From Octopus vulgaris (Eukaryota), in NCBI GenBank assembly GCA_951406725.2, contig OX597830.1:19468001-19532000 (forward strand): a stretch of 64,000 bases of DNA, written 5' to 3'. A program made the translations under genes and the position numbers. Below the pieces are notes generated by a model. It was given only the letters and a program-made list of their open reading frames with translations. It had not been told where the DNA came from and did not search any database. This document shows, piece by piece, positions 42,273 through 54,702 of the stretch. How positions within the stretch are numbered: position 1 is the stretch's first letter; every line of letters starts with the position of its first letter.

Positions 42273-42337
42273 CCTGAGAACGGCCCGTTTCTGGATTAGT
42301 TGAATATAAAGATCAACATTTCCTTCGTCAGCTCAAA
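42273..42337 (-). ncRNA. Type I hammerhead ribozyme candidate
   Basis: Reverse complement of 43001-43065. Confidence 0.68.
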
Positions 42338-43000
42338 GATTTCTTTTGATTTGGATTTGAGAGCACTAAAAATCGAACATGCCCGTCTGGTATGAGTAAT
42401 TCCAGACAAACCATATTCGACTGCCAGTACCAACGAATTCAAAAATACAAGTGAGGCCCTGCATATTTTTGAGTATGCATTGTCTGGGAGATTTTTCTTA
42501 CAGTAGAAGAAATAGCTAAGATTTTTTGGCTGCTATTTCTAAAAAGTTCGGTGTGTGGTAAAGTAAATTATTTTACTGAACCCTATTTTTATAACGTTAT
42601 TATTGACAATATAATTATCTCTCCCTGAAGTTTAACTACAGTTTCTCTCTGTAGGAATGTATCACTCTGTAACTCACGTGGGAGGAAGGGGATGAATGCG
42701 AAGCCTCACTTGTATTTTTGAATTCGTTGGTACTGGCGGTCGAATATAGTTTGTCTGGGATTACTCATACCAGACGGGCATATATATTTATATATTTTTT
42801 CTGTTACAGTTTTTATTGAAAAGTCATTAGAGAGATTTGAGATTCGGGGGAGAATTGAGGTTCCCTCGGTGGCTCCCACAGGGATGTTTGAAACAGAGTC
42901 CGGATATGGCATCCCCTACTTCAATAAAGAGAAGTAAAACTAAAAGCAAAATATAGTTATTTAATATCAACCACATGGTTGATCCAAATCAAAAGAAATC

Positions 43001-43065
43001 TTTGAGCTGACGAAGGAAATGTTGATCTTTATATTCAACTAATCCAGAAACGGGCCGTTCTCAGG
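43001..43065 (+). ncRNA. Type I hammerhead ribozyme candidate; predicted cleavage after GUU at 43059
   Basis: UUUGAG-CUGACGA-A-GGA.aau.GUUGA[loop]UCAAC.uaa.UCC-A-GAA-ACG[ggc]CGU-U-CUCAGG. Confidence 0.68.
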
Positions 43066-44259
43066 TAATCTTATATACGTGTGATCTTTCGTTATTTTTC
43101 CCTCTATACCTGTGTGAGTTATTTTTGAGTATGCATTGTCTGGGAGATTTTTCTTACAGTAGAAGAAATAGCTAAGATTTTTTGGCTGCTATTTCTAAAA
43201 TGTCCGGTGTGTGGTAAAGTAAATTATTTTACTGAACCCTAATTTTATAACGTAATATATATATATATATATATATATATATATATATATATATATATAT
43301 ATATATATATATATACATGTATATACACATACATATATGCGTACAGGACGTCACCAACGGTGCAAATAATATTAAATACGTAAACAAACGAGGGAAAAAC
43401 AAGTGAAATACGTAAAGAGAAAAATGGAAAACAGGACAAGTAAACAAAAAGAAATGAGCCTTCATCAGTTGTCAGCTGTCTATCTACTCCTCATTTCGAG
43501 TATTTCAACATTTCAACACCTGATGCGTGGTATACTGTGCACCTGTTCAGACAACTTTGCTTTGATGGATAGAGTGAGGTAATGTGCGGCACGAGCATTT
43601 GATCACTATAAACGAATCATTTGTGCAGGTCATTTGGCAAAGGCTGAACGCACATTCATCGTCTTTGACGGGAAAGTCCATCATACAATTTAAATTGAAT
43701 AAGCATCACTAACATTTAGAGTAATGTTAATAATAAAGTGGTTAGAAAGTTTTGACATTATCGCATCCACCGTGTGTATTTTTATAGTAAGTTGTAGTTT
43801 AGAACGACAGCTCTGATCATTGAAGTTGTACTTCAATATCCTTCTGTGTGTGTATATATATATATATATATAATGCTCTTAGTTTAGTTTTTCCTTGGTG
43901 CTGGCCAGATTGGAGCAATCTCGAGTATAATCTGGAACTCGCCTGGGGAAAGAAAACTCCGAATGACTCTTCCTTATTTTCTTTGTATCATCTATCTGGA
44001 TGTTTTGTTGTCCCCTGTTTTGTATCACCTAACTGTCTGGATGTATTGCGTTCTTGTCCCATTTTTGTATTATATATATATATATATATATATATATATA
44101 TATATATATAACACGCACATGTGTATGTATGCATGCATGTGTCTATGTATGGATATGTCTATGTGTATGTGTATATATATGTATGTATATGCACATATAA
44201 TTTAACAACACAATAAAAAGAACATATAAGAATGCAGAAGTATCATATACTTGACTTAC

Positions 44260-44356
44260 TAAGAATATAAGGGAGATGACAGGAGTTTTCTTCCTGATGT
44301 GAAGATAGGAGAGAACCTGTGGGAGATGACCCTCCCTTGCTGCAGCAAAACTCAGC
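44260..44356 (-). CDS. SLC7A9: SLC7A9-like copy B exon (97 nt) LSFAAAREGHLPQVLSYLHIRKKTPVISLIFL
   Basis: tttag| acceptor, |gtaagt donor; lies within ORF 44143..44379. Confidence 0.94.
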
Positions 44357-44479
44357 CTAAAGATGTCAAGATAAGACATTTATAACAGTAATCATGGTAA
44401 CAATAACACATGCAATATCACAAATGTATATGTACGAGTGGGGTGGTGAAAACACCTGTATCAAGTATTGAGGGCACTA

Positions 44480-53147: not shown

Positions 53148-53156
53148 ACTGATGCT

Positions 53157-53482
53157 GTGAAGGCGCGTGGCTTAGTGGTTAGGGCATTCGGCTCACGATT
53201 GTAAGGTCGTGAGTTCGATTCCAAGCGACGCGTTGTGTCCTTGAGCAAGACACTTTATTTCATGTTGCTCCAGTCCACTCAGCTGACAAAAATGAACTGT
53301 ACCTGTATTTCAAAGGGCCAGCCTTGTCACACTGTGTGTCACGCTGAATCTCCCTAAGAACTACGTTAAGGTTACACGTGTCTGTGGAGTGCTCAGCCAC
53401 TTGCACGTTAATTTCACGAGCAGGCTGTTCCGTTGATCGTATCAGCTGGGACCCTCGTCGTCGTAACCGACGGAGTACTCCT
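53157..53482 (+). mobile_element. tRNA-derived SINE with 12-bp TSD
   Basis: TSD TACACTGATGCT at 53145-53156 and 53483-53494; TGGCTTAGTGG and GTTCGATTCC boxes; relatives at 20705-21030, 37575-37886 and 38900-39230. Confidence 0.85.
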
Positions 53483-53980
53483 TACACTGATGCTATCCAA
53501 GGGAAAGGCAAAGACCGATACAGTTTGGCACCAGTGATGTCGCAACTCATTTCTACAGCTGAGTTAACTGGAGCAACATGAAATAAAGTGTTTTGCTCAA
53601 GAACACAACACGCAGCCTGATCAGGGAATCGAACTCACAATGTTACGATCGTAAGCTCGACGCTCTAACCACTGAGCCATGCGCTTTCACTCATTCACCA
53701 ATGACAAGTAGAATTATGAGATTTACAGAATTGTAAGGATCAACACTGCTTACCAAAAGCCATCATATATATATATATATATAAATATTACATTAATATA
53801 AAAGGGCTTAGTAAAATAAATTACTTTGCCACTTACTGAACTCATTAGAAATAGCAGCCAAAAAAGTTTTTTAGGTATTTCTAATACTTAAAGAAAATTT
53901 CTCTCAGATAGTGTTTACTCAGAATAACCCACGAAGGTATGGGGGTAAAAAACATTAAAAAATCACAACTGCAAAGATTA

Positions 53981-54043
53981 TTTGAGAACGTTACGTTTCT
54001 AGATCAGCCAAATAAAATTCGACATTTCTTTCGTCAGCCCAAA
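53981..54043 (-). ncRNA. Type I hammerhead ribozyme candidate (left arm of foldback)
   Basis: Reverse complement of 54640-54702. Confidence 0.68.
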
Positions 54044-54639
54044 ATTTCTTAATTTGGATTTGGAAACACTGAAAGTAGGAACATACCCTTTTGGCGACTT
54101 AACACCTCAGACGACCCGCTCAAACTGACAGTGCCAACAAATTCAAAATATGCAAGCGAAGAATTCCTGTTCTCCCTTTCCACCCACGTGGGCTAAACTA
54201 GCAAACACCATATTTTAGCGGTGAAAACCGAGGCAATAAACAGAGAGAAATGAATTATAATTTCAACAATTGAGGGTAAAATTAATTAGTTATTAATCAA
54301 TTTCACCAAGTATTCAGTATGTAAAAGGACCATTTAAGGCGAATTCAAAATATTACTTTTACATACTGAATACTTGGTGAAATTGATTAATAACTAATTA
54401 ATTTTACCCTCAATTGTTGAAATTATAATTCATTTCTCTCTGTTTATTGCCTCGGTTTTCACCGCTAAAATATGGTGTTTGCTAGTTTAGCCCACGTGGG
54501 TGGAAAGGGAGAACAGGAATTCTTCGCTTGCATATTTTGAATTTGTTGGCACTGTCAGTTTGAGCGGGTCGTCTGAGGTGTTAAGTCGCCAAAAGGGTAT
54601 GTTCCTACTTTCAGTGTTTCCAAATCCAAATTAAGACAT

Positions 54640-54702
54640 TTTGGGCTGACGAAAGAAATGTCGAATTTTATTTGGCTGATCTAGAAACGTAACGTTCTCA
54701 AA
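54640..54702 (+). ncRNA. Type I hammerhead ribozyme candidate; predicted cleavage after GUU at 54696
   Basis: UUUGGG-CUGACGA-A-AGA.aau.GUCGAA[uuuua]UUUGGC.uga.UCU-A-GAA-ACG[uaa]CGU-U-CUCAAA. Confidence 0.68.

What the first reader, a model, noticed from the sequence alone, without database searches (positions are those of the whole stretch)
42273..54702. Non-coding repeat family carrying a covarying type I hammerhead ribozyme (retrozyme-like)
Seen: two diverged insertions (41988-43255 and 53783-54988) each hold, once per strand, the order stem I - CUGACGA - stem II - GAAA - stem III - GUU - stem I. Structure is kept while sequence changes: GGA/UCC becomes AGA/UCU; GUUGA/UCAAC becomes GUCGAA/UUUGGC; the stem III loop GGC becomes UAA with ACG/CGU fixed; stem I UUUGAG/CUCAGG becomes UUUGGG/CUCAAA; and an AAGA/UCUU extension follows an internal loop. 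I see no coding remnant in the monomer, and both ends sit in (TA)n. Known: type I hammerheads occur in Penelope pLTRs and in metazoan non-LTR retrozymes that make circular RNAs. Inference: a non-autonomous, ribozyme-processed retroelement family, possibly undescribed in cephalopods. Caveat: stem II opens with a non-canonical A.A apposition instead of the usual G-C pair.
Basis: partly seen in the sequence, partly recalled or inferred. Interest (0 to 1): 0.85.

Follow-up and report, generated by a model that had tools for sequence, protein, structure and literature searches.

The report
Hammerhead-carrying mini-parasite of Penelope retrotransposons
A roughly 565-base non-coding repeat carrying a hammerhead-ribozyme fold has been inserted at over a thousand places in this genome, probably an octopus, with the insertion pattern of Penelope-like retrotransposons, so it is likely a self-cutting RNA that borrows their enzymes; cutting and circular RNA are predicted, not tested.

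Summary
Observation confirmed. Both insertions hold the type I hammerhead order at the stated places; the copy on each strand is one ribozyme, duplicated by an inverted arm. The motif occurs 1,050 times in G000 against 7 controls, in ten or more subfamilies with 548-594-nt non-coding units. Stems I and II covary, two tertiary-contact bases are nearly invariant, and the core 3-8 pair switches C-G, U-G, U-A while C-A is rare. The A.A at 10.1/11.1 is a subfamily-wide state, not decay. Insertions carry Penelope-like marks: (TA)n targets, inverted 5'-truncated arms, partial tandems and two fixed 3' ends about 90 nt apart. No coding parent shared sequence with the unit among 86 autonomous-element loci. 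Verdict: a non-autonomous, Penelope-mobilised retrozyme, a new variant of a known kind; I found no cephalopod report in nine paper searches. Self-cleavage and circles remain untested, and 5' ends do not pile up at the cut. The scan noted ribozyme-free elements of similar build in two other genomes, not this family.

The parts
41957..41987 (.). (TA)n target, left of insertion A
41988..42464 (-). Insertion A, inverted arm: 5'-truncated unit from about -186 to +295 relative to the cut, ending with the optional tail (about 41988-42070)
   Evidence: 94.8% to natural A-type array L029
42273..42337 (-). Type I hammerhead motif of the inverted arm of A; predicted cut 42279|42278
42464..42789 (+). Insertion A, direct arm, first part: +60 through the unit junction to about -93, lacking the tail segment
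42787..42980 (+). 194-nt copy of local flank 41359-41548 (185 of 194 identical) lodged inside the direct arm
42982..43256 (+). Insertion A, direct arm, second part: -78 to +195, ending at the inner 3' end site without tail
43001..43065 (+). Type I hammerhead motif A: stem I 43001-43006/43060-43065, core CUGACGA 43007-43013, A.A at 43014/43046, predicted cut 43059|43060
43255..43338 (.). (TA)n target, right of insertion A
53783..54357 (-). Insertion B, inverted arm: slightly more than one unit, ending at the inner 3' end site without tail, in (TA)n
53981..54043 (-). Type I hammerhead motif of the inverted arm of B; predicted cut 53987|53986
54358..54922 (+). One full 565-nt non-coding unit of B (longest stop-free frame 47 aa); folds as a circle better than shuffles (z -3.75)
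54640..54702 (+). Type I hammerhead motif B: core 54646-54652, predicted cut 54696|54697
54901..54988 (+). Optional tail between the two family-wide 3' end sites, with a hairpin at 54941-54973 (repeated at 54376-54408); followed by (TA)n

Best explanation
This is a non-coding, roughly 565-nt repeat unit with a conserved type I hammerhead fold that likely self-cleaves and is likely copied into TA microsatellites by the reverse transcriptase and endonuclease of an autonomous Penelope-like element (PLE), i.e. a non-autonomous PLE parasite of the animal retrozyme kind. Shown: the unit, its copy number, the covarying fold, head-to-tail arrays, inverted arms, two fixed 3' ends, TA targets, no ORF. 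Inferred steps: (1) a tandem copy is transcribed; (2) successive hammerheads would cut out a unit, probably slowly and perhaps only as a dimer or with protein help; (3) a host ligase would close it into a circle; (4) a PLE protein nicks (TA)n and starts reverse transcription internally at one of two sites about 200 and 290 nt past the cut; (5) it reads through the cut site on a circle or an uncut multimer, giving more-than-unit cDNA; (6) template switching makes the inverted arm and, in A, captured flank. Odds: real hammerhead under past selection 0.95; PLE-mobilised 0.9; cleaves in vitro in some form 0.8; circle is the main template 0.55.
For: Copy number: 1,050 core matches vs 7; 1,255 vs 0 for a downstream A/B/C motif. 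Fold: without demanding pairing, 58 of 79 core hits have 6 of 6 stem I pairs and 13 have 5; U follows stem I in 74 of 76 and RA closes loop 2 in 76 of 76, the two bases of the loop-loop motif of PMC2632901. 16 representatives: 12 of 16 pairs change on both sides, covariation score above 500 of 500 shuffles; RNAalifold finds stems I and II unaided. Core 3-8 pair: U-A 202 vs 25, U-G 143 vs 12, C-A only 36 vs 8, U-A at three places in the tree. Architecture in 81 motif-picked insertions: 79 with (TA)4 on a side (background 305 of 3000), 42 with an inverted arm, 21 longer than a unit on one strand; 156 of 182 3' ends at two sites, as described for PLEs (PMC8557442, PMC11167929). Arrays up to about 4.3 units, periods 548-594. 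Five of five units fold as circles better than shuffles (z -2.8 to -6.7). Open PLE ORFs of 781 and 960 aa exist in G000.
Against: No cleavage, circle or RNA end was observed. Rfam has no hit. For both window motifs the hammerhead fold is about 5.5 kcal/mol less stable than the predicted minimum, and the alignment fold prefers an inactive helix of core with stem III. U-G at 3-8 is common, so the core pair is not strictly Watson-Crick. 5' ends do not pile at the cut. No autonomous element shares the unit's 3' end, so the helper is unnamed. The 16 representatives were chosen for full pairing and are related, so 100% pairing is by construction. In Xenopus 8 of 9 predicted retrozyme dimers did not cleave in vitro (10.64898/2026.07.22.740005), and the anole PLE hammerhead needed protein and was dispensable for insertion in vitro (PMC11167929).
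Confidence: 0.8

Rival explanations
1. Same element, no circle: the hammerhead is weak or protein-gated, and the PLE enzyme copies uncut linear multimeric transcripts; the ribozyme only trims precursors now and then.
For: 56 of 96 segments run through the cut and no pile-up of 5' ends there; competing inactive fold; uncut RNA is the dominant substrate for the anole PLE in vitro (PMC11167929); arrays are short.
Against: Whole units fold as stable circles in five subfamilies; unit length is held at 548-594 nt across subfamilies of about 68-83% identity or less; related animal retrozymes make abundant circles (PMC7229834). Read-through fits a circle equally well.
Confidence: 0.3
2. The units are orphan terminal repeats (pLTRs) or 5'-truncated ends of an autonomous PLE that I did not sample.
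For: Opposite-strand hammerhead pairs 100-700 bp apart are described for truncated PLEs (PMC4209133); G000 holds thousands of PLE candidates of which only the best 150 per search were scored.
Against: Units follow units head to tail with no ORF between; 25 of 280 (partly overlapping) loci have a PLE protein hit, at differing ORF parts, distances and strands, 24 of them with a TA run in the gap; ten were read by eye and were separate neighbours; four PLE proteins give no tblastn hit in the units; the autonomous families seen have other hammerheads.
Confidence: 0.08
3. A DNA-level repeat (fold-back element, MITE or satellite) whose hammerhead look is a relic or chance.
For: Long inverted arms; no Rfam hit.
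Against: Arms are of variable length with scattered 5' ends and fixed 3' ends, the mark of reverse transcription; about half of insertions have no inverted arm (39 of 81); covariation incl. the core 3-8 pair needs selection on RNA structure.
Confidence: 0.02

Closest known systems
Animal non-LTR retrozymes (Cervera and de la Pena 2020, PMC7229834; Li, Clavereau and Pollet 2026, 10.64898/2026.07.22.740005)
   Same: Non-coding, low-GC (0.34-0.40) tandem units, one type I hammerhead per unit with 6-bp helix I and a loop-2 position four steps from the core, self-paired circular fold predicted, co-occurrence with PLEs.
   Different: Units 548-594 nt (150-450 in the 2020 paper, 51-972 in the preprint); mostly dispersed insertions under two units rather than long arrays; inverted arms, optional tail and (TA)n targeting are clear here and are not given as retrozyme features in the parts I read; loop 2 is an internal loop; A.A at 10.1/11.1; no matching PLE terminal repeat found, whereas 24 of 57 Xenopus families match known elements. 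Circles not shown.
EN+ Penelope-like elements, Neptune and Hydra clades (Craig et al. 2021, PMC8557442; Frangieh et al. 2024, PMC11167929)
   Same: Partial tandems, inverted 5'-truncated arm, optional tail from two start sites, (TA)n preference, type I hammerhead about 200 nt from the 3' end; Hydra hammerheads listed in File S2 often have U.U at the base of stem II and GUU or GUA triplets.
   Different: No RT or GIY-YIG ORF; tail about 90 nt instead of 30-40; hammerhead and 3' end unlike Hydra-1_Obim and the other autonomous families seen in G000.
Minimal PLE hammerheads (Cervera and de la Pena 2014, PMC4209133)
   Same: Long helix II, short and often palindromic helix III, many sequence families per genome, a U3-A8 core variant.
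   Different: That consensus keeps G10.1-C11.1 with an extra base at 9/10.1 and a 4-5-bp helix I with ill-defined loop 1; here helix I is 6 bp with an extension, and 10.1/11.1 is mostly A.A.

Membership tests
Type I hammerhead ribozyme | Core CUGANGA, GAAA, NUH around three stems, open at stem I | tested here: met
Type I hammerhead ribozyme | Covarying stems I, II, III | tested here: met
   stem III short, one varying pair
Type I hammerhead ribozyme | G10.1-C11.1 (consensus pair) | tested here: not met
   A.A in both window motifs; A.A 57, G-C 9, C.A 8 of 76. Not obligatory: U.U variants are printed (PMC3088659 section 8, PMC7229834), A.A activity unknown to me
Type I hammerhead ribozyme | Match to an Rfam hammerhead model | tested here: not met
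Type I hammerhead ribozyme | Site-specific self-cleavage | not testable with these tools
   needs in vitro assay or raw RNA ends; only contigs were available
Animal non-LTR retrozyme | Non-coding tandem units each with a type I hammerhead (two or more consecutive) | tested here: met
   family level: L095, L054, L120, L138, L223; each window strand holds only one hammerhead
Animal non-LTR retrozyme | No LTR, no ORF | tested here: met
   longest stop-free frames 47-80 aa in five units; no PLE protein hit. PBS and PPT were not searched
Animal non-LTR retrozyme | Expressed as linear and circular monomer RNA | not testable with these tools
   contigs cannot show ends or circles
Animal non-LTR retrozyme | Target-site duplication where present | tested here: inconclusive
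   ends lie in (TA)n, which hides it
Autonomous EN+ PLE | ORF with RT and GIY-YIG endonuclease | tested here: not met
Non-autonomous PLE derivative | PLE-type insertion marks: partial tandem, inverted 5'-truncated arm, optional tail, microsatellite target | tested here: met
Non-autonomous PLE derivative | 3'-end or pLTR homology to an autonomous PLE | tested here: inconclusive
   none among 86 loci of several families (hits only in L068 and L087, read as neighbouring insertions); not all PLE families of G000 were sampled

The most novel reading that the evidence does not exclude
An old, self-contained lineage of ribozyme RNA circles that keeps no sequence tie to any living PLE, hijacks PLE enzymes through a structural signal in its tail, and uses a deliberately weakened core (A.A at 10.1/11.1, shifting 3-8 pair, competing inactive helix) as a switch so that cutting happens only in dimers or when the PLE protein binds.
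Probability: 0.2. Interest if true: 0.75.

Novelty: new variant of a known kind. Interest (0 to 1): 0.55.

Why it matters
Which machinery moves animal retrozymes is left open in the papers that define them: PLEs are proposed from shared hammerheads, co-occurrence and terminal-repeat similarity. Here a hammerhead-bearing non-coding unit shows the PLE insertion marks directly, in over a thousand copies, some 97-99% alike, beside open Neptune-like and Hydra-like ORFs, so trans-mobilisation can be tested with named candidates. The subfamilies are also a natural mutation series of the hammerhead core (10.1/11.1 A.A, C.A, G-C; 3-8 C-G, U-G, U-A; U4C) that current Rfam models miss, which suggests many animal ribozymes go uncounted. 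It is not a new class of element.

Tried and rejected
1) 5' ends marking the cut: an apparent cluster in a biased set (11 ends within -6..+13) did not hold in 96 segments picked by a downstream motif: 9 within -5..+7, of which 3 were alignment breaks in a subfamily without a reference and 2 were one fold-back junction; neighbouring 13-nt bins held 6, 6, 3, 2, 4, 6. Rejected as evidence of cleavage in vivo. 2) Rfam: no hammerhead hit. 3) Single-sequence folding: uninformative. 4) Parent search: GIY-YIG family search, Hydra-1_Obim-like loci and a Hydra-like endonuclease search gave autonomous families with other hammerheads and no shared unit; only top-scoring candidates were seen. 5) RNA: no RNA holder listed; contigs of four runs guessed to be RNA cover 29-30 of 30 bins of unit B but cannot show level, strand, ends or circles; not used as evidence. 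6) Host context: the next exon of a spliced permease contig was not found in the window or in G000, so whether A and B are intronic is open. 7) Empty-site comparison with the inverted duplicate arm was blurred by other insertions. 8) The 13,417 count of a short 3' motif overstates the family: 14 of 70 sampled loci had no family match. 9) Lunse et al. 2017 was not held and the supplement of PMC7229834 could not be read; either may list this motif. Dfam and Repbase could not be searched.
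Full report
OBSERVATION. A and B are about 75% identical. The motif on the second strand is the same ribozyme in an inverted arm (arms 99% complementary). Rfam finds no hammerhead and single-strand folding is no better than shuffles, so the case had to be made from other copies.

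ANATOMY. B is an inverted arm (53783-54357) back to back with a direct arm of one 565-nt unit plus a repeat of its start (to 54988). A is an inverted arm with tail (41988-42464) and a direct arm (42464-43256) that lacks the tail segment at its internal junction and is interrupted by a 194-nt copy of flank 41359-41548, 185 of 194 identical. Both end in (TA)n. Five natural units have no stop-free frame above 80 aa.

FAMILY. DNA searches of G000 gave 3,323 and 2,063 first-look candidates for A and B, 40 scored each. The core pattern has 1,050 exact matches against 7 for its reversed control; a downstream motif of the A/B/C branch has 1,255 against 0. A shorter 3' motif has 13,417 against 4, but 14 of 70 loci sampled from it had no family match, so it overstates. 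Head-to-tail periods are 562-568 (A, B, C), 548-554 (D), 588 (E) and 583-594 (H), in arrays up to about 4.3 units. Subfamily units align at about 68-83% or only in patches. The organism is probably an octopus: the hammerhead motif published for Hydra-1_Obim has 22 matches against 0.

IS IT A HAMMERHEAD? A scan demanding core, 6-bp stem I and 3-bp stem II found 54 distinct motifs in 175 loci and 0 in the reversed loci. A scan of 260 loci demanding only core letters and the family's 3' motif found 79: stem I had 6 of 6 pairs in 58, 5 in 13, fewer in 5, and 3 had no triplet (the triplet was chosen to give the best stem I, which inflates this somewhat); the proximal stem II was complete in 72 of 76; U followed stem I in 74 of 76 and RA preceded the 3' strand of stem II in 76 of 76. 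These two unselected bases sit where PMC2632901 (abstract and the loop 2 section read) places the conserved loop 1 U and loop 2 A; that they touch here is inference. On 16 representatives chosen for full pairing, 12 of 16 pairs change on both sides; covariation score and doubly changed cells exceed all 500 shuffles, while the two pair-count measures are reached by 16 and 22 shuffles; slid structures drop to 30-44% paired. RNAalifold recovers stem I and both parts of stem II unaided but pairs the core with the 3' strand of stem III instead of forming stem III; for the window motifs the hammerhead fold is about 5.5 kcal/mol above the minimum. The core 3-8 pair, known to covary to U-A in active ribozymes (PMC3088659 section 8 read), varies here: U-A 202 vs 25 controls, U-G 143 vs 12, C-A 36 vs 8 (gap range wider than; copies are not independent). 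Of 18 distinct U-A hits in 20 loci, 15 looked like family members and 10 had 6 of 6 stem I pairs; in an unrooted tree of 19 rows U-A copies fall in three places among C-G copies. At 10.1/11.1 the counts are A.A 57, G-C 9, C.A 8, other 2 (sample partly picked by similarity to A and B or by an A.A pattern). So A.A is fixed in several spreading subfamilies, and a sister subfamily has the canonical pair. U.U there is printed for natural hammerheads (PMC3088659), for an axolotl retrozyme that cleaves better as a dimer (PMC7229834) and for many Hydra-clade PLEs (PMC8557442 File S2). I saw no test of A.A.

HOW IT INSERTS. In 81 insertions picked by a motif downstream of the cut, 79 have (TA)4 on at least one side (46 both; background 305 of 3000 windows), 42 have an inverted arm and 21 exceed one unit on one strand. 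Of 182 3' ends from 175 earlier loci, 85 lie at +188 to +212 and 71 at +285 to +315 from the cut. Partial tandems, an inverted 5'-truncated copy, an optional tail and microsatellite targets are the described marks of EN+ PLEs (PMC8557442, passages and the Hydra section read), and the tail reflects two internal reverse-transcription starts (PMC11167929, parts 1-2 of 4 read). 5' ends are scattered; 56 of 96 segments run through the cut and there is no pile-up at it, so the template was a circle or an uncut multimer, not a cut linear monomer. Five of five units fold as circles better than 15 shuffles each (z -2.8 to -6.7).

IS THERE A PARENT? G000 holds Neptune-like elements with open 781-aa RT plus GIY-YIG ORFs, a Hydra-like family with ORFs up to 960 aa (clade names are mine, from motifs in PMC8557442) and Hydra-1_Obim-like copies. 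All have other hammerheads and other ends. Thirteen unit references hit only 2 of 86 such loci: L087 is separated by a TA run; L068 was not read by eye. Of 280 partly overlapping family loci, 25 have a PLE protein hit, without a common junction; ten were read and were separate neighbours. Only top candidates were scored, so an unseen parent is not excluded.

COMPARISON AND NOVELTY. It works like, and at family level meets the sequence criteria of, animal non-LTR retrozymes (PMC7229834, parts 2-4 of 6 read, supplement unreadable; preprint 10.64898/2026.07.22.740005, parts 1-3 of 5 read, supplements closed). Both papers propose PLE mobilisation; the preprint sampled no mollusc and saw cleavage in 1 of 9 dimers. 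PMC4209133 (parts 1-2 of 4 read) already notes opposite-strand hammerhead pairs in truncated PLEs. An octopus repeat annotation lists 190 Penelope-like families and its supplement has no hammerhead or retrozyme term (PMC13282606, parts 1-2 of 3 read); the unit may be among them unnamed. Nine full-text searches listed no cephalopod retrozyme paper; Lunse et al. 2017 was not held, and PMC6765202, PMC8490949 and PMC10886601 were seen as passages only. Expression as circles and self-cleavage, both defining, could not be tested. Two earlier scan notes describe ribozyme-free non-coding units with similar PLE-type ends in other genomes; I did not check them.

VERDICT. A real, abundant, recently spreading hammerhead-bearing non-autonomous retroelement with PLE insertion marks: new variant of a known kind, interest 0.55.

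Noticed in passing
window about 3100-26200 and 34400-61500: Large inverted duplication; an amino-acid permease-like exon lies at 19039-19257 (+) and 41010-41228 (-), 95% alike. Contigs of two runs cover 41059-41200 as part of a longer spliced-looking record.
   Followed up: partly
window 42787-42980: Copy of flank 41359-41548 inside the direct arm of insertion A, with the unit resuming about 15 nt further on; likely a templated capture during or after integration.
   Followed up: partly
L091:2245-5672: Neptune-like PLE with many open 781-aa copies and an upstream 359-aa frame; its terminal repeat holds a hammerhead-like motif with a U3-A8 type core.
   Followed up: partly
L186:2166-8626 (-): Abundant Hydra-like PLE with a 960-aa ORF, a long asparagine-rich insert, a 3' region over 2 kb and a hammerhead with a very long stem II; no Pfam hit. 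It is not Hydra-1_Obim.
   Followed up: partly
L196, L198, L247, L255: Subfamilies with a CCGAUGA core (U4 to C), 6 of 76 distinct motifs, present in tandem copies.
   Followed up: no
L197, L201-L203, L218, L222, L224-L227, L250, L253, L257, L261: A short motif of the unit's 3' part also occurs in loci without the unit, apparently in another common repeat.
   Followed up: no
window 39443-40386 and 20397-20491: 18-bp tandem array of 52 copies, 96% matches, with a 5-copy counterpart in the other arm of the duplication.
   Followed up: no
window 56574-58772 (+): 732-aa open frame that reads like a non-LTR retrotransposon RT with a C-terminal endonuclease (label from recall, not scanned).
   Followed up: no
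window 44571-45222: Tandem pair of a 329-bp unit of a repeat that is common in the window.
   Followed up: no
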